The position numbers and the translations under genes are program-made. Under the pieces are notes generated by a model, which did not search any database, had not been told where the DNA came from, and saw only the letters and a program-made list of their open reading frames with translations. From Naegleria gruberi (lineage: Eukaryota), in the NCBI GenBank assembly GCA_000004985.1, contig GG738851.1: DNA of 64,000 nucleotides; one strand, given 5' to 3'. Position 1 is the stretch's first letter. Each line of letters starts with the position of its first letter. This document shows, piece by piece, positions 1 to 29,768 of this stretch.

Positions 1-19
1 ATTTCAAAAGACCCATATC

Positions 20-760
20 ACCAACATATTTCGCTCCTTCATTACCAATATTGTTGGTCCGAATATTGAGGAATAATAACTGTTTAGTTCACTAATGTAT
101 TTTGCACCTTTAGAACTATCATTGTATTATTGATTAAGATTAGTTAATTACTTTTTTTCACAGATAAGTTCCTTCGTCACCAATCCTATTTGAACAAATA
201 TTAAGCTCAGTTACTTGTTTCAATATACTAATATATTTAGCTCCTTACTTGCAAAGATTATTAAAACTAATATTAAGGTTAGTTAATTGCTTCATTTCAG
301 TGAGATAGTTAGCTCTGTCTTTATTAATATGATTTCAGCTAATATCGAGATTAATCAATTGTTTCAGGTTAGTAAGAAGCTCAACTCCGTCATCAATACT
401 ATATCCACAAATAAAAAGTTCAGTCAATTGATTCATGCTGCTGATAGATTTAGCTCCTATACAACCATCAGGATTACAAGCAATATATTAAGACGCGGTA
501 AAGATTTCATTTCGCTGCTGAAATATTAAAGTCCTTCAGCACCTATATAGTTATTATCAAGTATAGTTAAACGGATCAATTTGCTTATAAATTGAGCTCC
601 TTCATTAACGATATCATTGAATCCAATATCAAGACTAATCTATTTATCCATTTTGATTACCAATTTAGCTCCTTTTGCTCCAATCGTATTTCCAATAGAA
701 AGTTGCATATTTGTGAAATGAAACATCGTAAAGAAACTAATGCACAATCCATTATCAATA
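20..760 (-). pseudogene. Decayed LRR-repeat gene copy (MKQLTxLNI / IGxEGAxxIS repeat family)
   Basis: The reverse-complement translation gives a recognisable series of approx 24-aa LRR units (e.g. LTNLKQLINLDIS, NEGAQFISKLIRLTILDNNYIGAEGL, LTEMKQLTNLNI) from the same family as the genes at 948, 6982 and 8532. They are interrupted by several stops and frameshifts, and there is no long ORF. Confidence 0.55.
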
Positions 761-947
761 AATTTAACATTATCCTAATGAAAAATTAAAATTTCATAAA
801 GGATATCATCGGGTAGGAAATTGTTAAATTCTGAAATGCAAGTTGAAAAATTATTTGATGATTTTTCAAGGGTTTCGTCCAGTGATTTTTACAAGAGTTT
901 TGGTCAACCGAGTTTGTTCAGCAATACGAAAATAATAATTAAAAAAA

Positions 948-2504
948 ATGGTAAATTCTGCAAGGGAGCATCAAGAAGGTTTATTTTCCAACGACGTTTG
1001 TTTTGAAATATTGTCATTTCTTGATGGTTGGACTATTATTCGAAACTGCGCTTTAATTTCTAAACAGTGGTTTGAAATTATTAGAAATTATTCGAAACTT
1101 GATCTTGAGGTAATGAGTAAACTTTCCACGGAAAGAATCACCATGTTATCCGAAAGTCAATTCTTGAATAGAATTATTGGCTTCAAAGTTGGAAAGTATG
1201 CAGCTTCCGAATTTGTATTATTCGAAAGCTCAAACCTTGAACAATTATGGGAAACTATTGGTTCAATGTCTCAATTGACTAAACTTGATGTTGGCAAGAC
1301 TGGATTACATACTTTTCCCATTTCAATTTTACCTAATTTGGAAAATTTAACAGAATTAAACTTGACATTTTTGGAAATATTTGACCAAGGAGCAAAAATA
1401 ATAAGTCAACGATTGAAATTCATAACCAAACTCAGCGTCGATTATTGTGGAATTGGAATTGAAGGAGTACAAGCAATTGGAAATATGAAACAATTGACTT
1501 TTTTGAATATTAGTGAAAATGAAATGAGAAATGAAGAGATTGAATTGATTGGAACACTTGATCAACTCAAATATTTGAGTATTCGAAATATTACACGTGA
1601 GAATAACAGTGTTGATGATTATCTAGATTTTAATTCTCTGAAAAATCTGAAATTGTTGACCTACCTCAATATTGGTGAAAATAGAATTTCAGATGAGATT
1701 GGTTTACAATTTTTGAGAGAAATGAAACAATTGACTCATCTCAATGTTGCAAACATGGAAATTGGAAGTATTGGGGCTAAAATAATCAGTGAAATGACAC
1801 ATTTAGTTAAACTAAATATTGGACGAAATGATATTGGAAGAACTGGAATTGATTATATAGGTGAAATGAAACAATTGACCTCATTGAATGTTCAAAACTG
1901 CAATTTAATGGAATGTAAATTTTTATGTGGAATGAAACAATTACAATATTTGAATATTAGCGAAAATACAATTAGAAATGAAGGAGTGGATTTAATTTGT
2001 AAAGAACTATCTCAATTGAAATTTCTGAACATTTCTGAAATATTGTCAAGACCCTATCAATTTAGAAATGTACTCCCCATAAAATTGGAGAATTTACCTC
2101 GCCTTAATCAATTAACTGAGCTCGATCTTAGTAGTGATCGAGTGAATGAAGAAAGTTTGATTTTTCTTCTTGAATTGAAATGTTTAACCTCACTGAATGT
2201 CAGAAGAAATAGCATTACTTGTAATTGTGCTAAAATCATTAGTGGAATGAGCCAATTAACCAAACTGAATATCAGTGAGACACAAGTTGATGAATTGGTG
2301 ATGGAATATATTTGTGGAATGAAAGAGTTGCGAGTGTTGTATATGCAAAAGAATTATTTAGAAAATGATTCAGAGGTTGTTGACTTGATTGAGAAAATGG
2401 AAAGTTTGACTGAACTTGATATTAGTGATTGTTATATCAGTATTGAAAATGAAACCAAATTAAGAGAAATTAAGAAATTAAGGAAGCTTGTATTATTTGC
2501 TTAA
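948..2504 (+). CDS. F-box-like / leucine-rich-repeat protein (518 aa)
   Basis: ATG ORF. The N-terminus carries the motif SNDVCFEILSFLDG..NCALISKQWF, shared with the paralogs at 6982 and 8532. The body is about 20 LRR units with recurring MKQLTxLNI(S/G)xNxI. Confidence 0.85.
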   Translation: MVNSAREHQEGLFSNDVCFEILSFLDGWTIIRNCALISKQWFEIIRNYSKLDLEVMSKLSTERITMLSESQFLNRIIGFKVGKYAASEFVLFESSNLEQLWETIGSMSQLTKLDVGKTGLHTFPISILPNLENLTELNLTFLEIFDQGAKIISQRLKFITKLSVDYCGIGIEGVQAIGNMKQLTFLNISENEMRNEEIELIGTLDQLKYLSIRNITRENNSVDDYLDFNSLKNLKLLTYLNIGENRISDEIGLQFLREMKQLTHLNVANMEIGSIGAKIISEMTHLVKLNIGRNDIGRTGIDYIGEMKQLTSLNVQNCNLMECKFLCGMKQLQYLNISENTIRNEGVDLICKELSQLKFLNISEILSRPYQFRNVLPIKLENLPRLNQLTELDLSSDRVNEESLIFLLELKCLTSLNVRRNSITCNCAKIISGMSQLTKLNISETQVDELVMEYICGMKELRVLYMQKNYLENDSEVVDLIEKMESLTELDISDCYISIENETKLREIKKLRKLVLFA

Positions 2505-2606
2505 CATGAAATAACACTCAATTTCAAAATATTTCTCAACAGCTTAGATTATTAAACTATCTGGATTAGATTTATAATCTTATTCTAAACAACACAAACA
2601 ACACAA

Positions 2607-2677
2607 GGGGCGGTGGTGTAATGGTAACATCGCAGCCTCCAAAGCTGTGGCCGGGGGTTCGATTCCCCCTCGCCCCC
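2607..2677 (+). tRNA. tRNA-Trp: tRNA-Trp (anticodon CCA)
   Basis: The 71-nt sequence folds as a cloverleaf. Acceptor GGGGCGG/TCGCCCC, D-loop GTAATGGTAA, anticodon stem GCAGC/GCTGT with loop CTCCAAA, T-arm GGGGG-TTCGATT-CCCCC. Confidence 0.9.
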
Positions 2678-2924
2678 TGTCATTTTATTTTCCCAAATTA
2701 AGTAAACAAGATTTGATAATACAGGTTAAAGAGTAAAAAATTGGATGCTGTCAATGCGTAACAAGATCTTATTTAAGAAATTTTTAATTACAAGCCAGCT
2801 CGTTGTAAACATTTATTTGACTATTCAAAATTTGCCAAATTAGTATGTATGACATTTTTAAATCAGGTTGACTTTATTGGAAAAATGCTAATGCCTCTAA
2901 TACTGAAAGGTTTGTTAAACAAAA

Positions 2925-4403
2925 ATGCAGAATGACACATCCTCATCTATTCCATCAGTACTTACCAATGTTTTTCGGATTGACCCTCTCATTGTTTCAT
3001 ACATTGAAATTTCTTTGGCAATCGCTGCACTTTTCCTCTCGTTGTCACTTGTCGTGTATATCATCTACTTTTATCTCAAAAAACATCACACAATCACAAA
3101 GAACCACAAGAGAATGATTATTGGAGTGCTCATCATGTGTATTATGGAGTGTTTCGTCTTGATTTTCAGAATTATTTACGATAGTTTGAGTATTTCCTTT
3201 GGATTGAGATTTCAGAAATATGCTTCCACACTTGCATTGAAAAATTCCACAACTCTGGAGGGATTTGATACCTTCTTGTGGTATAACAATACTCTGGGAA
3301 TTACTCCATATGATGTGGGAATAAGTATGGAAGAAATTGTTATTTTCATAATTTCTGTAGCAGCCGAATTATTCATTGTTCTTATGGATATTCAAGTGAT
3401 GGTCATTATTGTTTGGTTTGTTACACTGGTCTTTGTGGAAACGTTTAGATTGTCGAGTGGATTGTTAAATTCAAGAAAAGTGCACTATTTTGTAAATATT
3501 GTCACAATTTTCACAATTATCAACTCGATTGGATTGTTGGTCATTAATTTAGTGACGACAATTCTGACCATTGTACAGAGATTGGGATATATCAGTGCCG
3601 AATCCATTACATATGTCTATGGATTGTGTCTATTACTGTTCCTAATTGAAATTCTCTCCCAAATAACCTTATTAATTGTAAGTAATTCAACAATATGACC
3701 TAGTTCAATATTGTGTTAAATCCGAATCAACAATTCCAATATTGTATTAAATCCGAATCAGATTGCTGCAACAATTGTTCTCCAAACAATTTCCAAAATC
3801 TCCATAGAAAATCAAAACAAGAGAAGAACCATCATTAAAATTCTCATATTACAAAGTGGATTATTTGGTTGTTTCCTATTCGAAGCTTTTGCAGCAGCCT
3901 CTGGAGTACTCGCCCAAGGAGTTGAAGCACATTTTGCTTTAGGCTACTCAACTGGTAATTCTCTTGGAATCTTGATATTTGCCTGCACTGCTCTGACTTT
4001 GTATACTCCTTTCCGAGCCCTGAATACAAAGGCCAATAGTGAAGATCATCAAGTGAATGATTCACTTCATAGTAGGTTAAAGTCATCATCATCAAATAAT
4101 AATTCCATGATGATGATGGAAAAGAAACAATATAGTTCGCTGAGTAATGGAACAACAACTACAACACCTACATCTTTAGTGAGAGTAGGAGAAATACCTC
4201 CTCGTTTGATGATGATAGAATTGGAGGAGGCTGGTATGAGCAATGATTGTTGTATTCAAAGCAGCTCCGGAAATGATGAAAACATGTTGATGGAAAAGGT
4301 TATTGTTGTTGATGAAAAGACAAAACAACAACAACTACCACAATCAACATTAGTAATTACTACCATTCCATGCAACGAACTAGAGAGCATGATCTTGAAA
4401 TAA
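2925..4403 (+). CDS. Multi-pass (approx 8-9 TM) membrane protein with a Ser/Asn-rich C-terminal tail; 2 exons (2925..3677, 3762..4403)
   Basis: ORF 2925..3698 ends at a canonical GTAAGT donor (3678), and AG at 3760-3761 restores the frame into ORF 3972..4403 with no stops in between (..ITLLI|IAATIVLQTIS..). The intron is 84 nt and contains an imperfect 24-nt direct repeat (3706-3729 / 3737-3760). The function is unknown. Confidence 0.65.
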
Positions 4404-4732
4404 TGTAATAATCTTTTTGTATCTCCATTTTGGGAGCATCCGAGAGAACAAATAGAAAAGAAATTACATTTACTCCCAGTTTGCTTTATTTTTTTAATTT
4501 TTTTTTGTTTTTTAAAAAAATTGTAAAAATTATCTTTTCTAATTTCAAATATTTTTATCGGTATTTCGGATTGAACAGTTTCAGATTCGTTCTGAAGAAT
4601 TTATGTGTTAATCTTTTGCTTGCTTCAATTGCAACGGGTATTGTAAGATTAGATCATCACCCAAACATCATGTGGGTGATGTGATGAAATATCATCTTTC
4701 GAATAAAAATTATCGTTCGAAATTAAAAAAAA

Positions 4733-5608
4733 ATGCAAATCCAACAACGACACATTGTTGCTGCTGCAGTTACCATCTTTCTCTTGGTGATTGTCTTTTC
4801 TCTAATGCCAAAAGCCACCGATGACAACTCCAAATACAACAATCATCATCAACAACAACCACAAATCTTGAATGCCAAACAATGTCCTCCATGTCCAACA
4901 ACAGCTGTTCAACAACAACAACAACAGACTTTCAAATCAGGTTCTTGTCCACCTGTTCAAGAATGTAAATGTTACTCTCTGACAGATGCCCCACCAACAG
5001 AACATGGTGATGGACAAGTTACAATGGCCACAACATTTGGTAAAGCACTTAACAAACTTGCTAAACAAGATGATGTGAATACAGTATTGGAAATTGGTAC
5101 TTGGTTTGGTGGTGGTTCTACTCAATGTATTGCCAAGGGATTGAAGGAATCAGGCTCTCATAAAAGATTATACACATTGGAATTATACGAACCTGCTTGG
5201 CAATATGCTAGAAAGACCTATTCACACATGCCAATTTACTTTATTTTGGGAGGAACAGTGCCAACTGATAAATATTTGGCACCAGATGAAATTCCACACA
5301 AGGACGATCACTTTAAATTATATTATCAGAGAGATATTGAATTATCAAAGAAGAATATTCCATGGTTGATGCCATTGTGTTTAGCAACTAGATTTGATGC
5401 TGTTTTGATTGATGGTAATGAATATACTGGTTGGGCTGAATATGAAATTGTTAATGATCATTGTAAACCAAAATATTTAATGTTGCATGATGTTGGTACT
5501 TTAAAGACAAATAAGATTGAAAAGGTTATTAAACAAGGTGGAACTGTTTGGGAATTGATAGATGAAGGTCAAGATGCTGCCAGATGGCAAATTTATAAGA
5601 GAAAATAA
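4733..5608 (+). CDS. Type II membrane protein with a class I SAM-methyltransferase-like motif (VLEIGTWFGGGSTQCIAKGL); poly-Q tracts; 291 aa
   Basis: ATG ORF with an N-terminal signal-anchor (VAAAVTIFLLVIVFSL) and a Gln-rich, Cys-containing linker. The motif hhEhGtxxGxST resembles motif I of TylF-type O-methyltransferases. The assignment rests on the motif only. Confidence 0.45.
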   Translation: MQIQQRHIVAAAVTIFLLVIVFSLMPKATDDNSKYNNHHQQQPQILNAKQCPPCPTTAVQQQQQQTFKSGSCPPVQECKCYSLTDAPPTEHGDGQVTMATTFGKALNKLAKQDDVNTVLEIGTWFGGGSTQCIAKGLKESGSHKRLYTLELYEPAWQYARKTYSHMPIYFILGGTVPTDKYLAPDEIPHKDDHFKLYYQRDIELSKKNIPWLMPLCLATRFDAVLIDGNEYTGWAEYEIVNDHCKPKYLMLHDVGTLKTNKIEKVIKQGGTVWELIDEGQDAARWQIYKRK

Positions 5609-5806
5609 TTGATAAAATTATTATGAAATAAATCCAAGAATAATATTAATTATTGACAATGTCTTCTATTAACAATTTTAGGTAATTTTAATTGTGATGT
5701 AGCTGCTTGGATTTCATGGCTAAAATCTGTGAAATAGAAATGTTTCCTTTGTTTAGAGGCAGTTATTTATTTTTTATAGGGACGTCATTTTCAATATGAA
5801 CAAGAA

Positions 5807-5879
5807 GCCCGTCTAGCTCAGTCGGTAGAGCGCAAGGCTCTTAACCTTGTGGTCGTGGGTTCGACCCCCACGGTGGGCG
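5807..5879 (+). tRNA. tRNA-Lys: tRNA-Lys (anticodon CTT)
   Basis: GCCCGTCTAGCTCAGTCGGTAGAGCGCAAGGCTCTTAACCTTGTGGTCGTGGGTTCGACCCCCACGGTGGGCG, 73 nt. The anticodon loop is CTCTTAA and the B-box is GGTTCGACCCC. Confidence 0.9.
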
Positions 5880-5999
5880 TTTCCTTTTGGTTTAATTTTT
5901 TTTTGCTCTATTTTGCAGAGTGATTTTGAATTAATTGAGACAAGGTCCTCAAATCCTGAAAATAAGGTATCTACATAGCTAGAAAAAGCAAGGCTTCTG

Positions 6000-6480
6000 C
6001 TCCGAATACATCAACAAGCTTTTTTCCACTTTAAATGCAACACTCCAAAACGATACAAGTGATGAAGCCCTTGGTCTTCGTACACAACATGATCCAGAAG
6101 CTAGTACATCATTAACACCAGAAGAAGATGAGGATGAACTTGAGGGGGATGAGGAAAACTCTCCAATATCACAACCAACACCTTGGACAAGACCTAGGCA
6201 TCCAAACTATGGAATGAAAACAGTTTCATCTAATAATCCAAATGAAAAACGAAAAAGAAAGCAAAGGTGGCTTCAAGAAATTCGAAAATATCAAAAATCA
6301 ACTTGGAATCTCATTAATCTAACAAGTTACTGCTGAATTATCTGAGAAAGTTCCATACATTAGACAGCATGTTGGTGAAGGTGCAATTCGATGGAGAAAG
6401 GATGCTCTTGCTGCTCTCCAGCAGCAGAAGATTATTTACATGAAGTTTTATCACTCGTGTTGGTTGTTCTTCTTTATTGA
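6000..6480 (+). pseudogene. Histone H3 / CenH3-like remnant (acidic N-tail, alphaN, alpha1, part of alpha2), frameshifted and truncated
   Basis: Frame 1 reads ..EEDEDELEGDEENSP..KRKRKQRWLQEIRKYQKSTWNLINLT (compare H3 [21 protein letters not shown] and CENP-A GWLKEIRKLQKST). After a +1 shift the next frame reads AELSEKVPYIRQHVGEGAIRWRKDALAALQQ (compare DFNWQAQALLALQEA). The next frame reads AAEDYLHEV and then loses the histone fold. There is no intact ORF. Confidence 0.4.
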
Positions 6481-6981
6481 CCACCCGAGTATCTTGTTCA
6501 TTAATAATTTCAATAACTTCTTGTGGGTGAACATTTGGAGAAGTGTTTTCTCTATTGTTGGATGGGGTATTTCTAAGACAAGTAGTTTCGTCTAGATCCA
6601 ATAACTCCATTTCGTATCCTCGGCCTGACTGCAATATTTTCTTGGTTAATAGTAGATCTATTTGTAGGTTGTTCAAGATTTTCATTTCTTCTATTCTCAG
6701 TGCTAATTTTGTTCAAGATTCCCATTTACAACATTATAATTCCATACAATCGGATTTGGAATCTTTAATAACCAGTTGACCTCATTAAACAATATCCAAT
6801 ATATGATTCCAATCAATTCAATTGCACTTCTTTTAAAATAAAACATGTATTATTATTTTAGAACATGACGGAACTTCAATTATTGTACAACATGTTTAAT
6901 GTAAAGTGGCATGGTATTGTTGCTTGTGATATTAATCAGAAAAAACTGCCAATATTTCAGCTATCATCAATTATCATCATT

Positions 6982-8326
6982 ATGATGGAGGTAAAACAAG
7001 AAGGTTGGTATTTTCGAATCGATATTTTCAAAATAATAATAATAATTAATGAATTGAATTGTTAATTAATAGAGAAGGTTATATTTTCGGATGATGTTTG
7101 TTTTGAAATTATTTCCATGATTGATGATTCGTGGTTTATTTTGAATAATTGTTCTTTAATTTCAAAACAATGGTTTAATGTGATCAAGGAACGTTCAAAA
7201 CTTGTTATTCAATTTAAAAAACAATTAACAGAAAAAAGAATTGAATTGTTAATGAAAAGTCAATTCATGAATAGTATTGTAAATGTTAAGTTTTATTATG
7301 GGTTGCTTAACTCTTCAGATAAACTTAAATTCATAAGTGGAATGAAATCATTAACATCACTTAATATTGGTCATAATGAAATTGGTGTAGAAGGAGCCAA
7401 ATTCATAAGTGAAATGAAACATGTAACATCACTTTATATACATTACAATGAAATTGGTGTAGAAGGATCCAAATTTATAAGTGAAATGAAACAATTAACA
7501 TCACTTAATATTGCTGACAATGAAATTGGCGTAGAAGGATCCAAATTCATAAGTGAAATGAAACAATTAACATCACTTAATATTGATTACAATGAAATTG
7601 GTGTAGAAGGAGCCAAATTCATAAGTGAAATGAAACAATTAACATCACTTAATATTGCTCGACAATGAAATTGGCGTAGAAGGATCCAAATTCATAAGTG
7701 AAATGAAACAATTAACATCACTTAATATTGGTGGCAATGAAATTGGTGTAGAAGGAGCCAAATACATGAGTGAAATGAAACATTTAACATCACTTGATAT
7801 ACATCGCAATGAAATTGGTGTAGAAGGATCCAAATTCATAAGTGAAATGAAACATTTAACATCACTTAATATATATTACAATGAAATTGGTGTAGAAGGA
7901 TCCAAATACATAAGTGAAATGAAACATTTAACATCACTTAATATTGGTGATAATGAAATTGGTGTAGAAGGATCCAAATACATAAGTGAAATGAAACAAT
8001 TAACATCACTTAATATTGCTGACAATGAAATTGGCGTAGAAGGATCCAAATTCATAAGTGAAATGAAACATTTAACATCACTTTATATATATTACAATGA
8101 AATTGGTGTAGAAGGAGCCAAATTCATAAGTGAAATGAAACATTTAACATCACTTAATATTTCTGGCAATCAAATTGGTGATGAGGGATCCAAATTCATA
8201 AGTGAAATGAAATCATTAACATCACTTAATATTGGTGATAATGAAATTGGTGTAGAAGGAGCCAAATTCATAAGTGGAATGAAACAATTAACATCACTTA
8301 ATATTGATGACAATGAATTGGTGTAG
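6982..8326 (+). CDS. F-box-like / LRR protein carrying about 13 near-identical 72-bp (24-aa) tandem repeats; contains a 1-nt frameshift (possible pseudogene or assembly error)
   Basis: ORFs 7117..7668 and 7655..8326 are the same repeat array split by one extra C (gctCgacaatg near 7660 versus gctgacaatg in the other units). The N-terminal motif DDVCFEIISMIDDSWFILNNCSLISKQWF lies upstream of the first ATG with no in-frame ATG before it. A mini-exon ATGATGGAG (6982..6990) plus an 81-nt GTAAAA..AATAG intron (6991..7071) would supply the start; that is inference. The repeat unit is NEIGVEGSKFISEMKQLTSLNIxx. Confidence 0.6.
7375..8320 (+). repeat. Tandem array of about 13 copies of a 72-bp coding repeat (over 90 percent identical)
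   Basis: aatgaaattggtgtagaaggatccaaattcataagtgaaatgaaacaattaacatcacttaatatt recurs with a period of 72 nt (7381, 7453, 7525 ...). Confidence 0.9.
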
Positions 8327-8392
8327 AATAAAACGTGAAACTTTATTAATGTCTCTTATATCAATAACAGCCTTGATGACATTTGGTAGGTC

Positions 8393-8432
8393 TCATATCT
8401 TAAGGTCGTGAGTTCGACCCCCATGGTGGGCG
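8393..8432 (+). pseudogene. Orphan tRNA 3'-half fragment, derived from tRNA-Lys(CTT)
   Basis: tcttaaggtcgtgagttcgacccccatggtgggcg matches the 3' half of the tRNA-Lys at 5807 (T-arm plus acceptor 3' strand) with 2 substitutions. No matching 5' half or acceptor strand lies upstream. Confidence 0.5.
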
Positions 8433-8531
8433 ATTCAATTTTTGTTGATCACAATTATCGTAGTGGTTGCTGATGATGAACTTTGTCCTATTATTAGGTT
8501 CACTAAGTCTTTCTAATTATTTAAAAAAAAA

Positions 8532-9884
8532 ATGATGATCAATTACGAATCAGTCTCCAATTCCATCAATTCCTCCCATTCCACAATATTCTCTGATGAT
8601 ATTTGTTATGAAATTCTATCCTATTTCCATGAGGAAAATGATGGAAAATTTATTCTACTAAATTGTTCGTTAATTTCCAAACAGTGGATGATGAATGTGA
8701 AGAAATTCGGAAAGATTTCAATTAATATTCGAAATAGAGTTTCGGATTCATTGATAGAACCAATCAAGAGAAATCAATTTTTGGAATGTTTTGTGAAATT
8801 TGGAATTTATTCGCAAGATTTCAAGTTTCATGAAATAATTAAAATGATGAAGAATTTAAAAAGTCTTTCTATTGGAAATTGTTCTATTGGAGAGGAGGAT
8901 TTGAAATTTATCGGAGAAATGAATCATTTAACTGAACTTGAATTGTGTGAATGTTTGACTGGAGATAAAGATATTAGACCAATTAGTAGAATGTCTCAAT
9001 TGACTAAATTAAATATTAGTAAGAATGCAAAATACCATTTAAGCGATATCTTTGACATGAAGCAATTAAAAATACTAGAAATTGGAGAAAATTTCATAGG
9101 AGATGAACAAGCTGAACTGCTTTCCAATCATTTGAAACAATTGACCATTTTACGAATTAATAACAACTTAATTCATTCTCAAGGTGTTAAACATTTGAGT
9201 AAATTGGATCAATTGACTGAATTAGATTTAAGTGGAAATGCTTTTAATGATACAATTGGCTCTGAAATTGCAAAAATGGAACAATTGAAAACTCTTCACG
9301 TTAACAAACTTGCAAGACATCGAATGGGATCACGGTTGGGTTCACAATTTGGAAACTTATTTCAATTGACCAGTCTTAGTATAAGTAATAATTATATTGG
9401 AGATGAAGGAGCCAACGAAATTAGTAATTTAACACAATTGACTGAATTATATGTACATGGAGCTGAAATTGGATATAGAGGAGCCAGATCATTAAGTGTT
9501 TTACACCAGTTGACCAAACTAGATATCAGTACAAATCATATTGGAGATGAGGGAGTTAGATTATTCAAACAATTATCAAAATTAACAGAACTTGTTGTGT
9601 TTAATAATAGAATTGGAGATGTTGGAGCACAACTTATTAGTGAAATTCCTCAATTGACCTCTCTTGTTGTTAGTAGCAATCAAATTGGAAACGAAGGGGC
9701 AAAATCAATTAGTCAAATGTCAAAATTGAAATATCTTTCGATTAATGGAAATCAAATTGGTGATCAAGGAGCTAAATTATTAAGTGAAATGAATCAATTA
9801 AGAAGAATTGAAGTTTATGGAAATAATATTAGTAATGAGATATTTCAATTATTTGGAATTAAAATTCAAAATAAATTGAAATAA
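8532..9884 (+). CDS. F-box-like / leucine-rich-repeat protein (450 aa)
   Basis: ATG ORF. The N-terminus reads SDDICYEILSYF..LLNCSLISKQW, and LRR units (LTxLxISxNxIGDEGA) fill the rest. Confidence 0.85.
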   Translation: MMINYESVSNSINSSHSTIFSDDICYEILSYFHEENDGKFILLNCSLISKQWMMNVKKFGKISINIRNRVSDSLIEPIKRNQFLECFVKFGIYSQDFKFHEIIKMMKNLKSLSIGNCSIGEEDLKFIGEMNHLTELELCECLTGDKDIRPISRMSQLTKLNISKNAKYHLSDIFDMKQLKILEIGENFIGDEQAELLSNHLKQLTILRINNNLIHSQGVKHLSKLDQLTELDLSGNAFNDTIGSEIAKMEQLKTLHVNKLARHRMGSRLGSQFGNLFQLTSLSISNNYIGDEGANEISNLTQLTELYVHGAEIGYRGARSLSVLHQLTKLDISTNHIGDEGVRLFKQLSKLTELVVFNNRIGDVGAQLISEIPQLTSLVVSSNQIGNEGAKSISQMSKLKYLSINGNQIGDQGAKLLSEMNQLRRIEVYGNNISNEIFQLFGIKIQNKLK

Positions 9885-9954
9885 AGGAAGTGATTACAAT
9901 AAACAAAAGTGGAATATTATATCCAAATGATTAAGGATGTTAAGGTAAAATGAA

Positions 9955-10027
9955 GCTGGCGTAGCTCAGTCGGTAGAGCGTTGGTCTAATAAGCCATTGG
10001 TCGCCGGTTCGATCCCGTCCGTCAGCA
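9955..10027 (+). tRNA. tRNA-Ile: tRNA-Ile (anticodon AAT)
   Basis: GCTGGCGTAGCTCAGTCGGTAGAGCG..CTAATAA..GGTTCGATCC..CGTCAGCA. The acceptor pairs at 7/7, and the anticodon loop CTAATAA is typical of eukaryotic tRNA-Ile(AAU). The T stem has one mismatch. Confidence 0.75.
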
Positions 10028-10135
10028 GCTGTTTTATTGCCATGTTTTGGAGAGTGTAATTTGATCATTCACAGAAATCCGCATCAGAAAGCAAACCATG
10101 AGAGATTCACTCATCGATAAAACAAGATCCAAATT

Positions 10136-11544
10136 TTGCAACCACCCTTCATATGTGATGCTGATCATTTCGACCTTTTAACATATTCTCTCGATGTAAC
10201 ATTTACCAATTATCCAACCATTACGAAAACAATTTCAACCATTCGAAAATTATTATTAAACGAGACGAATAGGGAAATAATGATTCGAGTTGGTATTCCA
10301 GAAAAATTAATGCAACTATTGGATCAGGCATGTGTTTCTAAAAGTTACAAAAATTCACATGGATGTGAAATTTCCAGTGAGAAATTGAATTTACTTTGCA
10401 TACAGTCAATTAGAACACTAAGTTCCATAGCATCTAGGCCTAATCAATCAGAATATTTAGTTTCATTAGGCTGCATTCCAATGATCAATTCTCTATTGAA
10501 AAATTCTTTATTGAATTCAGTTATAATATATGAATGTTCTAAATTATTGTCTATTCTCATTTCTGATTCATTTTCAGTGAGATTGCAAATTTTGGAGGAA
10601 GTTTTACCAACATTATTGAACCATTTGAATAATTGCGAGAGAATTCCAATGGAAATTGTAAAATGGGGTAAGTTTATTGTCAGTTTGAATTGAATTTTCA
10701 ATATTTGAGAAGAAACAGAGTTATTGGCTGGTTTTATGAGAAAGAAGGAAAAACTTCCTGTTGAATATTTGAAAATAATGTTGCCTACTGTTGGCAAATT
10801 ATTGTTGGCACTTGACACTTCTGATGTTGGTTTTTTAACACAGATTATGTTTTGTCTGAGTGCTATTACGAGTGAAGCTGAACTAGTTCCAATATTTATG
10901 GAAATGAATTTAACGAATCGAATTATATCTTTATGTCGTAACCAGGATTATTTGAATCTCTTAATAGTGTAAGTAATCATCTGATTTGGAAATTTGAAAG
11001 ATATTGGAATAGAGTTTCGTATAAGACCATTAAGAATGTCATCATGACAGAAAAAAGGAATTATATCAAAATAATCCTTAATCAAGAATTTTTTTCAATA
11101 TTGAAACAATTACACTTTCCAACAAGAATTCAATTTCATGTCAAGGAAGTTTGTTGGTATATTTCCTTTTTTATTTCCAAGAATTTCATCAAAGAGTTGA
11201 AAGAATCCGAGTTGGTTCCATGGCTATTTGATTCCATTCTCAAAAAAGTGGAAAATCTTCCAGCAAAATCAGAAATGATTACCAGCATTATAGATTGGTG
11301 CAAGGATGTCACAAATGTGGAGATAATGAACTATTTATTGGAAATGAATATTGTCCAAGTGATAGGTGAAGAAATTAGAGAAAATTATGTATTGAGAGGA
11401 ATGTGTGGAAAAGTTTTATTGCAATTCCTGAAATTCAACAAGGAAAAAGTATCACTCTTAATGAATAATTTTGAAATAATTGAATTGGAAGATTTACATT
11501 ATCAACGTGAAAGATATGATAATAGAAAGAGAGTGGAATACTAG
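10136..11544 (+). CDS. Armadillo/HEAT-like helical-repeat protein, function unknown; at least 3 exons (10136..10667, 10710..10968, 11013..11544); 5' end unresolved
   Basis: Three consecutive ORFs are joined by GTAAGT donors (10668, 10969) and frame-restoring AG acceptors (10708-9, 11011-12); the introns are 42 and 44 nt. The first ORF begins at TTG in the track, and the first in-frame ATG is at about 10283 (MIRVGIPEKLMQLL), so the true start or a 5' exon is uncertain. Confidence 0.5.
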
Positions 11545-20673: not shown

Positions 20674-20747
20674 TACGCCGTAAGGGAGTCGAACCCTTGA
20701 CCTTCAGCGTGTAAAGCTGACGATCTAACCAACTGATCTAACGGCGC
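20674..20747 (-). tRNA. tRNA-Val: tRNA-Val (anticodon TAC)
   Basis: The reverse complement is GCGCCGTTAGATCAGTTGGTTAGATCGTCAGCTTTACACGCTGAAGGTCAAGGGTTCGACTCCCTTACGGCGTA, with the anticodon loop TTTACAC and a full cloverleaf. Confidence 0.85.
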
Positions 20748-20955
20748 TTGATGAAGCAAAAGAAAGAATTAAGGAGCAGTGTTGATAATTACCAGTTTAC
20801 ATGTTGGCCAACTCTGATTTTTAACAATTCAATGCATACCATACTGTACTTTGAGTTTATTGAGAATCCCTTTTAACAAACAAAAATGGAAACAGATTAC
20901 AGTCATTACAACGTTTCCAGGCATCAATTTTGAAAATAATTGATTTTCGATGAAA

Positions 20956-21027
20956 GGGACCATGGTCTAGTGGTATGATTCTCGCTTTGGGTGCGAGAGG
21001 CCGTGGGTTCGATTCCCACTGGTCCCC
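20956..21027 (+). tRNA. tRNA-Pro: tRNA-Pro (anticodon TGG)
   Basis: GGGACCATGGTCTAGTGGTATGATTCTCGCTTTGGGTGCGAGAGGCCGTGGGTTCGATTCCCACTGGTCCCC. It has the GTCT/GATT D-stem typical of tRNA-Pro and the anticodon loop TTTGGGT. Confidence 0.9.
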
Positions 21028-24946: not shown

Positions 24947-26767
24947 TTAGTCAGTTACTACTTTATTCCTTTGGTTAAGCAATGCTATGCAACAGCGGTA
25001 AAGCAAAGCCAATCGTTCCTCAGAATCAAGAGCACAATTTTGAAAATCCAAACAATCAGGATATTTCTCGTAGAACGTTTTGCAATGTTCTTCAAATGGC
25101 ACACCATTGATTTGGATGCATTTGATAGCAAATTCAAATGCATCCCATTTTTCTTTAGTGATTCTGTTTGAATCAGTAATTATATCTGTGCATAAATCCT
25201 CTATTGTTGAAGCTCCCAAAATTGAAGGTTTGAAACATTTGACAGCAGTTTCTAGGATTCTTTCAAATTCCGAACTATTAGCATACCAATAAATAAATAA
25301 TGTTCTAATAGTCGACCTAACATGCTCTGCATAATAACTTATATCTCTATTTTTCTCATTCAATTTTTCCATCAACTTTTCCAAATCAAATGGCCCATAT
25401 TCCTCATAGAAATCCTTAAAATAATACATAATATTGCAATTGTAGGTTTTAAAAAACGATTCCACAAAATGTGAAGGTCCTACAAGTCCTTCAAAATATT
25501 CTAGCTCGTAAGGATCAAAATCGTTCACCAATTTGATTAATTTCATTGGATTTGCCTGTCTAAAAGTATAAGTATGCAAAATTCTCTTAATATCTGTCAT
25601 ATTTATCAATCCATGTTTGTATAACTCTTCTATTAACTCATAATCATTGACATTTCTGCATATTAAAAAAAGAATATTCTCTGAGAATAGTTCCATCTTG
25701 TCCACTTTCACAATCTCACAATATTTTCTTACAAATTCAAAGTTAAGATATGATGATGATTCACTTAAGTGGACAAGTCTGTTATTATGTCTATAACCAA
25801 AATTCTTCGTGCAACTGTCAAATATTTTGACGGACAAACCAGGATAAATAATTTCCATACAATTAAACCAACATTCCAATCCCAGCAGAGAACTTGCAAT
25901 ATGATGGAGAGGTATTTGAAGTTTGGATATGTCATTTGATTTTTCTACATTTCCATCAATGGAAATATATTCTTGGATGAATTTCAATAATTTTTCTTCG
26001 TCTTTGTGAATGACAATGTAATTAGCCAGCGAGTAATCATCCATTATCGGTTTGAATTTGTTGATAAATTCGATCGAATCATCGTATGTGAGTTCAGAAA
26101 TAGCAACATTGAATATGGATTTTGAGAAACGTTTCCAATAGTCTTGAGCTCTCAATCCTTCCATCACTCTGCCATCTTTTGTGAATTTCTTGGCATGCGA
26201 CAAGAAATATTGGGCTATAACTCCCGTGTGTATATATTCTACAACACTGGGTTGAAAATCTTTTGAGATTTCTTCTAATCCTTTGCTCATCATTAATGAA
26301 AAATTAGCATTCAAAGCAGACGGAATCAATTTCTTAAATCTCGTTCCAAAAACTGTTGATCTTTCCATTTCATCCTCGTCTCTATCCATAAACTCCATAA
26401 ACGAATGCTTGTTCACCTTCTTTTCATTCAAAATCTGAGTAGTGTGAAACTTTCTCGTCACATCCGCAAGATTCCTATAAATTTTGTATTGTGTAGAGTT
26501 TTTAGCACAAGATTCCATCATCTTTTCATAATAATCAATTTTTAATAGCAACCAATTGGATAGCAGTGTTTTCCAGACCATTTCAAACCGATCCAATTGA
26601 TACCAATTTTTACAAGTCAACACACAGGATAGACCGTCCTTCAAACCAATATATTCCATCACGTGAAAGAGAGTGTCCGGGTGAAGTTCATGTTGTGGCA
26701 TTTTTTTTTTCTGTTGTAAATGATTTCTTCCACTGGTCAACCCAAAACCAATGCAAATTGTCTGCAT
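24947..26767 (-). CDS. F-box domain protein (hypothetical), 606 aa
   Basis: ATG ORF. The N-terminus LHPDTLFHVMEYIGLKDGLSCVLTCKNWYQL fits the F-box consensus (LPxEIL..IF..L...DL.....VCK.W..L). The rest has no recognised domain. Confidence 0.6.
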   Translation of the reverse strand: MQTICIGFGLTSGRNHLQQKKKMPQHELHPDTLFHVMEYIGLKDGLSCVLTCKNWYQLDRFEMVWKTLLSNWLLLKIDYYEKMMESCAKNSTQYKIYRNLADVTRKFHTTQILNEKKVNKHSFMEFMDRDEDEMERSTVFGTRFKKLIPSALNANFSLMMSKGLEEISKDFQPSVVEYIHTGVIAQYFLSHAKKFTKDGRVMEGLRAQDYWKRFSKSIFNVAISELTYDDSIEFINKFKPIMDDYSLANYIVIHKDEEKLLKFIQEYISIDGNVEKSNDISKLQIPLHHIASSLLGLECWFNCMEIIYPGLSVKIFDSCTKNFGYRHNNRLVHLSESSSYLNFEFVRKYCEIVKVDKMELFSENILFLICRNVNDYELIEELYKHGLINMTDIKRILHTYTFRQANPMKLIKLVNDFDPYELEYFEGLVGPSHFVESFFKTYNCNIMYYFKDFYEEYGPFDLEKLMEKLNEKNRDISYYAEHVRSTIRTLFIYWYANSSEFERILETAVKCFKPSILGASTIEDLCTDIITDSNRITKEKWDAFEFAIKCIQINGVPFEEHCKTFYEKYPDCLDFQNCALDSEERLALLYRCCIALLNQRNKVVTD

Positions 26768-28151: not shown

Positions 28152-28226
28152 TGCTACCCGCGCGGATCGAACGCACATCTTCTTACTCCCGATAAGCAAG
28201 ACGCCCTACCATTAGACCAGAGCAGC
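28152..28226 (-). tRNA. tRNA-like gene of uncertain identity (possible tRNA-Ile TAT with a 4-nt intron, or a pseudogene)
   Basis: The minus-strand sequence is GCTGCTCTGGTCTAATGGTAGGGCG TCTTG CTTATCGGGAG TAAGA AGAT GTGCGTTCGATCCGCGC GGGTAGCA. The acceptor, D-arm and T-arm are good (B-box GTTCGATCC). The anticodon stem TCTTG/TAAGA encloses 11 nt rather than 7, so either a 4-nt intron or an expanded loop is present. Confidence 0.5.
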
Positions 28227-28262: not shown

Positions 28263-29477
28263 TCAAGCATTAAGATACTCCATCAAAAAGAAAAACCACA
28301 GTGGAACTGTGTTGTGCTCCAATAATTTGGAGCTAATCTCAATATAGGGAACTGTGTGTGTAGCCAATCGATTGTAGAGTCTTTGATTTGTAATCTTGTA
28401 TTCTGAACTGTGATCTGACTGCATACCAACAATGGCCATGATACATGAGGGGACTAACTTTCTAACCTGCTCTATAAAGAAACGAATATTTAGTAAGGTG
28501 GCTTTGCTTGTCAAGTCAAAAGCAATGATGCAATATTTGGAATCATTCAAAAAAGAATTTCTTGGTACGTATATTTGTTCTCCTCCTGCCCAGTCCCATA
28601 ATGCAATGTTCAAGCTTTCAGTCTGATTCAATTGTGTTGACAAATTGAAAACTGAGACAGTACAACCAATGGTTGGTAAATACTTTTGGTGTGGTTTGAA
28701 TTTTGAAACATCTAAGGATTTACAAAATGTTGTCTTGCCAACTGCACCACAGCCCAAAACACAACACTTTGCCAACTTGATATCCTTCCACTTGGAAAAG
28801 GTTTCATCGGTGAGTGAAAATTTTCTAACTCTAAGGAGAGCTGCTTCCTCTTCCACAATCTTCTTACCACTATTCTTCAGGAAGGATTTGTAAACTTGAA
28901 ATTGTTTCATCAAACTCTCGAATAATAATAAATCATCGGGTTGATGAGTCTTATCTGCCACTGTGGATGATGATGAAGAATTATCATCCTCTTTCAAATT
29001 CAAGACAATGTGTTGCCATAGACCCTTTTCACTCCACTCCTTCTCACACTCCTTCAACATGTTCATAACATATTGTTGAAAGCAAAATTCGTAGAATCCA
29101 ACTTTTTCTGCAGCCAAGTCTAGGAAGGATTCTGAAGTTGGTGGCTTATTCTCTTCAAAATCATCATCACCATCCTCTTGATATTTCATCAATGCTAGCC
29201 AATATAAATCACTCTCTGTATAATTAATACTAATATTCAATGATGTCTTATGGTTCTGCAACTTGATGATTTTCCTTTGGATATACTCTTCGACAAGTCT
29301 TCGGGAAAGCTTACAACACTTGGAGATGCCAAAAAACAAATCCAAAGGATTGAGAAACTCCAATATTGAAAACAACCATACATCATTATTAATTCCCATC
29401 AATTCGTGTTGTTCATCCTTTTCCTCGTTGTCGGCTTTTATTCTTAAGCTTGATTCTGTATTGTTCTTGTTATTCAT
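28263..29477 (-). CDS. F-box-like N-terminus fused to a degenerate Ras-superfamily GTPase domain (no NKxD, no switch-II Gln)
   Basis: The track ORF starts at TTG (29615), and the first ATG gives MNNKNNTESS.. at about 29477. The F-box-like segment is DVWLFSILEFLNPLDLFFGISKCCKLSRRL. The GTPase-like segment has the P-loop LGCGAVGKTTF and DxxG as WDWAGGEQ. There is no NKxD, and GMQSD sits in its place. Confidence 0.55.
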   Translation of the reverse strand: MNNKNNTESSLRIKADNEEKDEQHELMGINNDVWLFSILEFLNPLDLFFGISKCCKLSRRLVEEYIQRKIIKLQNHKTSLNISINYTESDLYWLALMKYQEDGDDDFEENKPPTSESFLDLAAEKVGFYEFCFQQYVMNMLKECEKEWSEKGLWQHIVLNLKEDDNSSSSSTVADKTHQPDDLLLFESLMKQFQVYKSFLKNSGKKIVEEEAALLRVRKFSLTDETFSKWKDIKLAKCCVLGCGAVGKTTFCKSLDVSKFKPHQKYLPTIGCTVSVFNLSTQLNQTESLNIALWDWAGGEQIYVPRNSFLNDSKYCIIAFDLTSKATLLNIRFFIEQVRKLVPSCIMAIVGMQSDHSSEYKITNQRLYNRLATHTVPYIEISSKLLEHNTVPLWFFFLMEYLNA

Positions 29478-29768
29478 CCTCCTATTTTTTAATGCAAGCT
29501 TGAAGGTTGTGGATTTTAAGAGGAGGTGTGAGATTGCCAAGTTGTTGTTGGTGTTACATGGAGTGTTGATGAAGAATTCTTTTTTGTTGAATTGTTTCTT
29601 CTTTTTCACCGCCAAACTAACCGTTAGACCGGTTATTAAATATTTTAATTTTTAAAATAAAAAAAATGTAAATGTATCATCACTTCCTAATGGAAGTAAT
29701 ACTTCAATTGTCATTGAGCGGATAGTTTGCTCATACCGCACGACAATGCAAATAACAAAGAAGAAAAA

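What the first reader, a model, noticed from the sequence alone, without database searches (positions are those of the whole stretch)
1..10030. Cluster of F-box-like/LRR paralogs with a tRNA or tRNA remnant after each gene copy
The first 10 kb holds four members of one LRR family. They share an unusual N-terminal motif, DD(V/I)C(F/Y)EIL.....NC(S/A)LISKQW(F/M), and MKQLTxLNI repeat units. The members are a decayed copy on the minus strand (20-760), gene 948-2504, the frameshifted 72-bp-repeat gene 6982-8326, and gene 8532-9884. Each plus-strand copy is followed within about 100-150 nt by a tRNA (Trp, Ile) or a tRNA-Lys 3' fragment. An intact tRNA-Lys and an H3-like remnant sit between copies. 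This looks like repeated segmental duplication of an LRR-gene-plus-tRNA unit followed by differential decay. The cluster is a candidate fast-evolving recognition (F-box/LRR) locus.
Basis: partly seen in the sequence, partly recalled or inferred. Interest (0 to 1): 0.6.

Follow-up and report, generated by a model that had tools for sequence, protein, structure and literature searches.

The report
F-box/LRR gene cluster beside tRNA genes
The first 10 kb of this Naegleria gruberi window really does hold four old, diverged members of an F-box/leucine-rich-repeat gene family with tRNA genes just after three of them, but they did not arise by copying a "gene plus tRNA" unit, so the locus is largely ordinary.

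Summary
The window is Naegleria gruberi nuclear DNA. Four members of one F-box/LRR family lie in 1-9884 and nowhere else in the 64 kb:
- a decayed minus-strand copy;
- intact g2;
- g3, with a 14 x 72-bp repeat array and a +1 frameshift;
- intact g4.

Co-oriented tRNA-Trp and tRNA-Ile follow g2 and g4 by 102 and 70 nt. A 29-nt tRNA-Lys 3' fragment follows g3 by 77 nt.

The interpretation of repeated duplication of an LRR-plus-tRNA unit is not supported:
- The three tRNAs are different isoacceptors.
- The flanks share no homology beyond the tRNA-Lys piece.
- g2, g3 and g4 are only about 28-46% identical.
- The g3 N-terminus is 74-85% identical to N. gruberi genes on other scaffolds.
- The N-terminal motif is a family-wide F-box, not specific to this locus.

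Non-LRR genes in the window are also followed closely by co-oriented tRNAs, and the window is about five times richer in tRNAs than the genome average. The triple adjacency is still somewhat unlikely by chance: p is about 10^-4 to 4x10^-3 unconditioned and 0.13 given the local tRNA cluster. It could not be tested genome-wide. Low interest.

The parts
1..830 (-). Decayed F-box/LRR pseudogene (psi1). It lies head-to-head with g2 and its 3' end runs off the window's left edge.
   Evidence: tblastn hits of g2, g3 and g4 to 2-834 in frames -1 and -2. The three-frame translation shows 'DDILYEIL...' plus LRR units, interrupted by many stops and frame changes.
948..2504 (+). g2, an intact F-box/LRR gene of 518 aa. 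It is annotated as 'predicted protein [Naegleria gruberi]'.
   Evidence: ORF. 100% match to P0001. Pfam LRR_8, LRR_6 and others, plus F-box-like at 20.5 bits in the full-length protein and 25.6 bits (above the 24.3 cutoff) for the N-terminal segment alone.
2607..2677 (+). tRNA-Trp(CCA), 102 nt after the g2 stop codon.
   Evidence: ARAGORN. Rfam RF00005 57.5 bits.
2925..3698 (+). Interspersed unrelated ORF of 257 aa, a hydrophobic multi-pass membrane-like protein. It is not part of the family.
   Evidence: ORF. No Pfam hit. No similarity to the LRR genes.
4733..5608 (+). Interspersed unrelated methyltransferase-like gene. The source names it 'glycosyl transferase'. The intact tRNA-Lys lies 198 nt downstream of it.
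   Evidence: Weak Pfam Methyltransf_24 hit. 100% match to P0129 of N. gruberi, with co-orthologs in N. lovaniensis.
5807..5879 (+). Intact tRNA-Lys(CTT).
   Evidence: ARAGORN. Rfam 66.4 bits.
6262..6440 (+). Possible histone-H3-fold remnant, frameshifted near 6335. Support is sub-threshold.
   Evidence: Pfam Histone 14.2 bits, E=0.054. tblastn with H3: 'LQEIRKYQKSTWNLI', 11/15 identities, E=0.36. Frame translations.
6982..8326 (+). g3, an F-box/LRR gene. Its features are an 84-nt intron (6991-7074), a 14-unit 72-bp (24-aa) LRR array (7327-8328), a +1 C insertion at 7660, and a stop codon created by a 1-nt deletion in the last unit. It is either a recent pseudogene or carries a sequencing error.
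   Evidence: TRF period 72, 13.9 copies, 89% matches. Unit register. The repaired translation reads through. Pfam LRR_6 E=3e-43.
8404..8432 (+). tRNA-Lys 3' fragment (T-arm plus 3' acceptor strand), 77 nt after the g3 stop codon. It is followed by a T-rich trailer that loosely resembles the trailer of the intact gene.
   Evidence: blastn 5851-5892 vs 8404-8446, 86% over 43 nt. 27/29 identical to tRNA-Lys, against 13-18/29 to the other tRNAs. Upstream part not significant. No Rfam tRNA hit at E<=10.
8532..9884 (+). g4, an intact F-box/LRR gene of 450 aa.
   Evidence: ORF. Pfam LRR_6 E=5e-33. The AF2 model has three N-terminal helices plus an RI-like LRR horseshoe. Foldseek hits include RI, RipG4, FBXL2-SKP1, COI1 and TIR1.
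9955..10027 (+). tRNA-Ile(AAT), 70 nt after the g4 stop codon.
   Evidence: ARAGORN. Rfam 59.9 bits.

Best explanation
This is a loose cluster of four anciently diverged members of a Naegleria-lineage F-box/LRR family. The proteins are presumed substrate receptors of SCF ubiquitin ligases: the N-terminal F-box would dock on Skp1 and the RI-like 24-residue LRR horseshoe would bind targets. The cluster lies in a compact, tRNA-dense stretch of the N. gruberi genome.

The cluster shows birth-and-death evolution. It holds one heavily decayed copy, one copy with a recently expanded 72-bp LRR array and a single frameshift, and two intact genes.

The tRNA genes are independent Pol III genes of different identities that occupy the short intergenic spacers. 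Their position just 3' of the LRR genes reflects short spacers and locally high tRNA density, not co-duplication of a gene-plus-tRNA unit. The tRNA-Lys 3' fragment is the scar of a truncated former tRNA-Lys gene beside g3.

Shown here: family membership, F-box and LRR domains, pseudogene states, lack of flank homology, different tRNA identities, and closer relatives of g3 on other scaffolds.

Inferred: SCF function, and that the adjacency has no functional meaning.
For: Organism and family:
- N. gruberi is identified by 100% matches to P0001 and P0129, both on a 693,645-bp scaffold.
- The four LRR copies occur only in the first 10 kb.

F-box and fold:
- 14 of 16 family N-termini hit Pfam F-box-like (best E 1.1e-5; the g2 segment scores 25.6 bits against a 24.3 cutoff). 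12 of 16 hit F-box (best E 2.6e-6).
- The AF2 model of g4 has pLDDT 80.9 and three N-terminal helices followed by an LRR solenoid.
- Foldseek top hits are ribonuclease inhibitor, the RipG4 LRR domain, FBXL2-SKP1, COI1-ASK1 and TIR1.

No duplicated unit:
- There is no flank homology and no shared flanking repeats.
- The tRNAs are different isoacceptors, 43-52/73 identical.
- The copies are 28-46% identical, while the g3 N-terminus is 74-85% identical to P0121-P0123 on other scaffolds.
- The family is dispersed over many scaffolds. The F-box profile finds 76 representatives at E<=1e-3 and 20 at E<=1e-10 among 1.84 billion proteins.

tRNA placement:
- Five of the 8 tRNA-like elements in the window sit within 200 nt 3' of a co-oriented gene, and two of those genes are not LRR genes.
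- All genes in 948-11544 are on the + strand, so the shared orientation adds little.
- The window has 7 tRNAs in 64 kb. The genome has 924 tDNAs in about 41 Mb (the genome size is from my own knowledge), or about 1 per 44 kb (PMC2888827).
- Four family or related LRR loci from other Naegleria-like assemblies (L001, L002, L003, L006) have no tRNA 3' of the LRR gene.
Against: - Random placement of the window's 7-8 tRNA-like elements into its 35 spacers puts one in all three LRR 3' spacers rarely. With length weighting the frequency is about 8e-4 (n=8), or about 1e-4 if the same strand is also required. By my own calculation, with equal weight per spacer and n=7 it is about 4e-3, and it rises to 0.13 if one conditions on four elements falling among the five spacers of the 10-kb cluster. 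Pure chance is therefore not fully comfortable.
- The test is post hoc with n=3.
- The N. gruberi genome could not be queried, so no genome-wide test was made.
- The control loci are few and come from other species.
- Skp1 binding was not tested. The F-box helices in the model have only moderate confidence (pLDDT about 52-63).
Confidence: 0.72

Rival explanations
1. One reading: an ancestral LRR-gene-plus-tRNA unit was duplicated repeatedly in place, and the copies then decayed differentially.
For: Three co-oriented LRR genes are each followed within 70-102 nt by a co-oriented tRNA or tRNA fragment. Two tRNA-Lys-derived sequences lie 2.5 kb apart.
Against: - The tRNAs are Trp, Lys and Ile, no more similar to each other than to unrelated tRNAs.
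- The flanks share no homology.
- The copies are only 28-46% identical, and the nearest relatives of g3 are on other scaffolds.
- The intact tRNA-Lys follows a methyltransferase-like gene, not an LRR gene.
Confidence: 0.04
2. The association is real but not a copied unit. tRNA genes are fragile sites or rearrangement breakpoints, as is known for yeast synteny breakpoints and replication-fork pausing at tDNAs (from my own knowledge). Dispersed duplicates of this fast-turnover family preferentially land, or are retained, next to them. On this reading the tRNA-Lys 3' fragment is a breakpoint scar from the arrival of g3 or from rearrangement around it.
For: - The triple adjacency has low probability under random placement (8e-4 length-weighted; about 4e-3 with equal spacer weights by my own calculation).
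- A truncated tRNA-Lys lies directly 3' of g3. The homology starts abruptly inside the tRNA.
- The closest relatives of g3 are on other scaffolds, which implies ectopic duplication.
- A pseudogene and an H3-like remnant sit in the same interval.
Against: - No target-site duplications, poly(A) tails or mobile-element genes lie around the LRR genes.
- g3 keeps an intron, so it is not a retrocopy.
- Four LRR loci in other Naegleria-like assemblies lack an adjacent tRNA.
- Conditional on the local tRNA cluster, p is about 0.13.
- Synteny with N. lovaniensis is absent, so the ancestral state cannot be reconstructed.
Confidence: 0.2
3. Functional coupling: the downstream co-oriented tRNA acts as a 3'-end processing signal, terminator or insulator for the LRR transcripts, for example by RNase P/Z cleavage of a read-through transcript.
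For: The only evidence is the geometry. The tRNAs are co-oriented and lie 70-102 nt past the stop codons. A Ras-domain gene shows the same arrangement at 36 nt.
Against: - After g3 there is only a 29-nt fragment that cannot fold as a tRNA.
- Other family loci lack tRNAs.
- No transcript data are available.
- The arrangement is expected anyway in a compact genome.
Confidence: 0.03
4. An integrative-element signature: an intact tRNA-Lys and a direct repeat of its 3' end bracket a 2.5-kb insert (5880-8403), as happens when site-specific integration targets a tRNA gene.
For: The repeat is direct, 27/29 identical, in the same orientation, and the intact gene lies on the left.
Against: The interval contains only an H3-like remnant and the g3 LRR gene. 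It holds no integrase, recombinase or transposase ORF. The repeat has mismatches. No such tRNA-targeted integration mechanism is known to me for Naegleria nuclear DNA.
Confidence: 0.02

Closest known systems
FBXL-type F-box/LRR substrate receptors of SCF ubiquitin ligases (e.g. Skp2, FBXL2, TIR1, COI1)
   Same: Both have an N-terminal F-box of about 40 aa followed by an LRR solenoid. The F-box matches Pfam F-box and F-box-like. Foldseek matches FBXL2-SKP1 (6o60_C), COI1-ASK1 and TIR1.
   Different: The LRR units are 24-residue ribonuclease-inhibitor/GALA-like units rich in 'NxIGxEGAKxIS'. The F-box is a lineage-specific variant (FSDDxCxEILSF...NCxLISKQW) that sits at or just below the Pfam cutoffs. 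Skp1 binding and substrates are unknown.
GALA/RipG F-box-LRR effectors of Ralstonia and the Legionella LegL/GALA-like LRR proteins
   Same: These are the best sequence-profile and near-best fold matches for the LRR part: 9j7j RipG4 (E=8.5e-15, Foldseek E=9.6e-16) and 4xa9 LegL1. They share the 24-residue units and the F-box-plus-LRR logic.
   Different: Those proteins are bacterial secreted effectors that mimic host F-box proteins. The genes here are the amoeba's own nuclear genes, one of them with an intron.
Birth-and-death LRR gene clusters (e.g. plant NLR and F-box clusters)
   Same: Shared features are clustering of diverged paralogs, pseudogenes, tandem-unit expansion, and variability concentrated at the exposed x positions of LxxLxLxxN.
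   Different: This cluster is small, with four copies. The copies are interspersed with unrelated genes, and there is no evidence of recent local duplication.
tRNA-gene-associated genome dynamics (tDNA clustering in eukaryotes, PMC2888827; tDNA-linked breakpoints and retroelement targeting in yeast and Dictyostelium, from my own knowledge)
   Same: tRNA density is locally high, and a truncated tRNA sits next to a recently changed gene.
   Different: No retroelement, target-site duplication or duplicated tRNA unit was found here.

Membership tests
F-box domain (Pfam PF00646 / PF12937) | An N-terminal motif of about 40-48 aa that matches the F-box profile at or above the curated cutoff. | tested here: met
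   The g2 N-terminal segment scores 25.6 bits on F-box-like against a 24.3 cutoff, and 20.4 bits on F-box against 20.5. Of 16 family N-termini, 14 match F-box-like and 12 match F-box, with a best E of 2.6e-6. Full-length g2 scores only 20.5 bits, and g3 and g4 give no hit at E<=0.01. Membership therefore holds for the family but is marginal for individual genes.
F-box domain (Pfam PF00646 / PF12937) | A three-helix F-box fold that binds Skp1. | tested here: inconclusive
   The AF2 model of g4 has helices at 22-31, 38-47 and 50-59 ahead of the LRRs, but their pLDDT is only about 52-63. A profile search of PDB sequences gives only FBXO42 at E=0.59. Skp1 binding cannot be tested with these tools.
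Leucine-rich repeat proteins, ribonuclease-inhibitor-like (LRR_6) class | Tandem LxxLxLxxN-type units that form a curved solenoid. | tested here: met
   Pfam LRR_6, LRR_8 and LRR_4 at E from 1e-16 to 3e-43. AF2 shows alternating strand and helix units with pLDDT up to 98. Foldseek matches RI 2bex_A at E=5.6e-16 with TM 0.63.
tRNA genes (Rfam RF00005) | A full cloverleaf scoring above the gathering score. | tested here: met
   Trp 57.5, Lys 66.4 and Ile 59.9 bits against a 29-bit cutoff.
tRNA genes (Rfam RF00005), applied to the element at 8404-8432 | A full cloverleaf scoring above the gathering score. | tested here: not met
   There is no tRNA hit even at E<=10. Only the 3' 29 nt match tRNA-Lys, at 27/29. 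The upstream part is not significant. It is a fragment, not a gene.
Segmentally duplicated 'LRR gene + tRNA' unit | Homology between copies that extends through the spacer into the tRNA, with the same tRNA in each unit. | tested here: not met
   blastn with word size 7 finds no flank homology. There are no shared k-mers of 13 nt or more. The tRNAs are Trp, Lys and Ile, 43-52/73 identical.
Segmentally duplicated 'LRR gene + tRNA' unit | The local copies are each other's closest relatives. | tested here: not met
   The g3 N-terminus is 85, 77 and 74% identical to P0123, P0121 and P0122 on other scaffolds, against 46% to g2 and 43% to g4.
tRNA-targeted integrative element (intact tRNA plus 3'-end direct repeat bracketing an insert) | A direct repeat of the tRNA 3' end, and an integrase or recombinase encoded in the insert. 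| tested here: not met
   The direct repeat is present. The 2.5-kb interval has no recombinase-like ORF. It holds only the H3-like remnant and g3.
Histone H3 fold (Pfam PF00125), applied to the remnant at 6262-6440 | A match to the Histone profile above the cutoff. | tested here: inconclusive
   14.2 bits against a 26.4 cutoff, E=0.054. tblastn with H3 gives 11/15 identities, E=0.36.

The most novel reading that the evidence does not exclude
In N. gruberi, members of this fast-turnover F-box/LRR family might be non-randomly sited immediately upstream of tRNA genes. tDNAs would then act as preferred breakpoints or landing sites for ectopic gene duplicates, or as boundary or 3'-end elements for them. 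The truncated tRNA-Lys next to g3 would be a footprint of one such event.
Probability: 0.12. Interest if true: 0.5.

Novelty: new member of a known kind. Interest (0 to 1): 0.15.

Why it matters
As it stands, this matters little. The locus is an annotated but uncharacterised cluster of F-box/LRR genes of a familiar kind, and the eye-catching tRNA pattern is not a duplicated unit. Two things are mildly useful. First, the work defines a compact Naegleria-lineage F-box variant: about 20-76 sequence clusters in 1.84 billion proteins. Its LRR units vary at the ligand-facing positions, so it is a candidate diversifying recognition repertoire in a free-living amoeba. Second, the truncated tRNA-Lys beside a recently remodelled paralog gives a concrete, cheap genome-wide test of whether tDNAs organise the turnover of this gene family.

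Tried and rejected
- Fetching N. gruberi loci of paralogs to test LRR-tRNA adjacency genome-wide: the N. gruberi genome is not in the gene-position index.
- A metagenome scan with the family N-terminal profile: 168 pattern matches, none confirmed.
- Synteny through the methyltransferase-like neighbour: two N. lovaniensis co-orthologs and one environmental relative share no other window gene and have no tRNA nearby. The ancestral arrangement could therefore not be reconstructed.
- Reading the element at 8370-8432 as a whole decayed tRNA-Lys: rejected. The 5' half is not significant and Rfam gives no hit.
- An LTR-retroelement primer-binding site as the origin of the fragment: rejected by inspection. 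There is no TGG/CCA complement, the match is 29 nt rather than about 18, and no LTRs were found.
- Retroposition of the LRR genes: rejected. There are no poly(A) tracts or target-site duplications, and g3 keeps an intron.
- An exact-sequence look-up of g4, g3a and the membrane ORF found no annotated models identical to my ORF calls.
- A PDB profile search with the F-box segment alone was too weak to be useful.

Full report
**Identity of the window.** The g2 ORF (948-2504) is 100% identical to a 'predicted protein' of Naegleria gruberi on a 693,645-bp scaffold. The methyltransferase-like ORF 4733-5608 is 100% identical to another N. gruberi protein on a scaffold of the same size. GC content is 30-35% throughout, and most genes are long uninterrupted ORFs. 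This is compact eukaryotic nuclear DNA.

**Check of the observation: the LRR genes.** tblastn of the LRR proteins against all 64 kb gives hits only in 1-9884.
- The minus-strand copy is a genuine pseudogene. Its LRR units and an N-terminal 'DDILYEIL' motif are spread over two frames with many stops. It spans 1 to about 830 and runs off the left edge of the window.
- g2 and g4 are intact.
- g3 needs an 84-nt GT..AG intron (6991-7074) to join its ATG to the F-box exon.
- g3 holds a 72-bp array of 13.9 copies at 89% identity.
- g3 has one extra C at 7660 that shifts the frame, and it ends at a stop codon created by a 1-nt deletion in the last unit.

**Check of the observation: the tRNAs.**
- tRNA-Trp, tRNA-Lys(CTT) and tRNA-Ile are solid, at 57-66 bits.
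- The tRNA-Lys 3' fragment is 8404-8432. It is 27/29 identical to the 3' end of the intact gene, against 13-18/29 to the other tRNAs.
- Sequence upstream of the fragment is no more tRNA-like than shuffled sequence: 1142 of 5000 shuffles score as well. Rfam does not see a tRNA there even at E<=10.
- Gaps from stop codon to tRNA are 102, 77 and 70 nt.
- The H3-like remnant is only weakly supported.

**What the genes are.** The shared N-terminal motif is an F-box.
- Scanned on their own, 14 of 16 family N-termini match Pfam F-box-like and 12 of 16 match F-box. The g2 segment scores above the curated cutoff.
- One N. gruberi member (P0125) is already labelled as an F-box protein.
- The rest of each protein is RI-like LRR (LRR_6 E down to 3e-43).
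- An AlphaFold model of g4 (pLDDT 80.9) shows three N-terminal helices followed by a regular strand-helix solenoid.
- Foldseek matches ribonuclease inhibitor, the Ralstonia RipG4 (GALA) LRR domain, FBXL2-SKP1, COI1-ASK1 and TIR1.
- The best-supported mechanism is therefore an SCF substrate receptor. The F-box and LRR domains are shown. Skp1 docking and target binding are inferred.

Within the g3 array, almost all variation falls at codons 8, 13, 15 and 16, the exposed x positions of LxxLxLxxN. pN/pS is 1.6 there and 0.37 elsewhere. This pattern is typical of recognition LRRs, with the caveat that the comparison is between repeat units of one gene.

**Size and spread of the family.** An exhaustive HMMER search with the 48-position F-box profile finds 76 representatives at E<=1e-3 and 20 at E<=1e-10 among 1.84 billion proteins. 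The named ones are all N. gruberi proteins on many different scaffolds. The rest come from unnamed environmental contigs. The motif is therefore family-wide and not a peculiarity of this locus.

**Test of the duplication-unit idea.**
- The 3' and 5' flanks of the copies share nothing beyond the 43-nt tRNA-Lys match and generic tRNA similarity. No longer shared words or target-site duplications exist.
- The three tRNAs are different isoacceptors, 43-52/73 identical. That is the same range as their identity to unrelated tRNAs elsewhere in the window.
- g2, g3 and g4 are 28-46% identical.
- The g3 N-terminal 108 residues are 85, 77 and 74% identical to P0123, P0121 and P0122, which lie on scaffolds of 695,587, 160,583 and 326,815 bp. 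At least g3 therefore belongs to a dispersed, more recent subfamily and is not a local duplicate.

**Is the tRNA adjacency more than chance?** The evidence is mixed.
- The window holds 7 tRNAs. One of them, at 28152-28226, is seen by Rfam only with lax filters (39.4 bits).
- N. gruberi has 924 tDNAs (PMC2888827) in about 41 Mb (the genome size is from my own knowledge). That is about 1 per 44 kb, so the window is roughly 5-fold enriched overall.
- Every tRNA lies within about 40-370 nt of an ORF end because the spacers are short.
- Five of the eight tRNA-like elements are directly 3' of a co-oriented gene, and two of those genes are not LRR genes.
- All genes in 948-11544 are on the + strand, so the shared orientation adds little.
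- Random placement of 8 elements into the 35 spacers fills all three LRR 3' spacers with frequency about 8e-4 (length-weighted), or about 1e-4 if the same strand is also required.
- By my own calculation the frequency is about 4e-3 with equal spacer weights. It is 0.13 if one conditions on four elements falling among the five spacers of the 10-kb cluster.
- The test is post hoc with n=3.

Control loci are few.
- Three loci carry genes with the family's N-terminal motif: L001, L003 and L006, from environmental or Logan assemblies. One locus carries a more distant LRR gene: L002, from N. lovaniensis. None has a tRNA 3' of the gene.
- About 89 kb of Naegleria-like control DNA holds a single tRNA.
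- The N. gruberi genome itself could not be reached, so the decisive genome-wide count remains undone.

**The tRNA-Lys fragment.** It is a true 3' fragment with its own T-rich trailer, lying 2.5 kb downstream of the intact gene in the same orientation. The interval between them holds only the H3-like remnant and g3. It has no recombinase or transposase, so an integrative-element reading is unsupported. The simplest reading is a former tRNA-Lys gene truncated during the rearrangement that placed or remodelled g3. This is the one observation that keeps a tDNA-breakpoint association alive as a minority hypothesis.

**Synteny.** Two N. lovaniensis co-orthologs of the methyltransferase-like gene and one closer environmental relative share no other window gene and have no nearby tRNA. 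The arrangement is not conserved, and the ancestral state cannot be reconstructed from the data available here.

**Verdict.** The locus is a new, unremarkable instance of a known kind of gene family in a tRNA-dense, compact region. A small residual possibility of a real tDNA association is cheaply testable on the public genome.

Noticed in passing
window 28152-28226 (-): A tRNA-like gene that ARAGORN calls Pro(ggg) with the anticodon at position 37. The whole-window Rfam gathering run missed it, but it scores 39.4 bits with lax filters and has 7 nt where the model's anticodon loop has 3, so it may carry a very short intron or have an odd loop. It sits 36 nt after the stop codon of the Ras-domain gene 28263-29615 (-), on the same strand.
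   Followed up: partly
window 6262-6440 (+): A possible histone-H3-fold remnant: 'LQEIRKYQKSTWNLI' followed, after a frameshift, by 'IRWRKDALAALQQQ'. An acidic tract lies upstream. All scores are sub-threshold (Pfam 14.2 bits; tblastn E=0.36). It could be a decayed H3 or CenH3-like variant.
   Followed up: partly
window 7660 and 8315-8319: g3 is disabled by a single extra C inside an otherwise clean 72-bp array, and it ends through a 1-nt deletion in the last unit. Either change could be an assembly or sequencing error in a repeat rather than real decay.
   Followed up: partly
window 35238-38172 (-) and 44374-47357 (-): Two pairs of ORFs whose translations are clearly paralogous. One pair reads 'MALIRHYLLKDNKKKLIDYNIFN...' and 'MVRHYLVKDNKKKLVDYNIFN...'. 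The other reads '...EWIKKVTNSDKRSF...' and '...EWIKKVSNSDKKSF...'. This looks like a duplicated two-exon gene about 9 kb apart, possibly protease-like.
   Followed up: no
window 39079-40017 (+) and 41037-42548 (+): Two ORFs share repeated 'NHRIRKVLTNGTI...AG.G..GY.GD' units that look NHL-like. The second continues into Cys-rich EGF-like repeats and a Ser/Thr/Asn-rich tract. They may be one split gene or a tandem pair.
   Followed up: no
window 42877-44244 (+) and 24947-26767 (-): Further F-box-containing genes outside the LRR family. The first has F-box at 26.2 bits plus DUF4116. The second has a weak F-box-like hit at 17.7 bits. Neither has an adjacent tRNA.
   Followed up: partly
window 20674-21027: A divergent pair of tRNA-Val(TAC) on the minus strand and tRNA-Pro(TGG) on the plus strand, 208 nt apart, between an RGS-domain gene and an Arf-like GTPase gene. 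This adds to the high tRNA density of the window, 7 in 64 kb against about 1 per 44 kb genome-wide.
   Followed up: partly
window 4733-5608 (+); L004, L005, L007: The methyltransferase-like gene is labelled 'glycosyl transferase' in N. gruberi and 'O-methyltransferase' or hypothetical in N. lovaniensis. N. lovaniensis has two co-orthologs at 72-74% identity, and relatives are widespread in environmental contigs. No Pfam family reaches its cutoff.
   Followed up: partly
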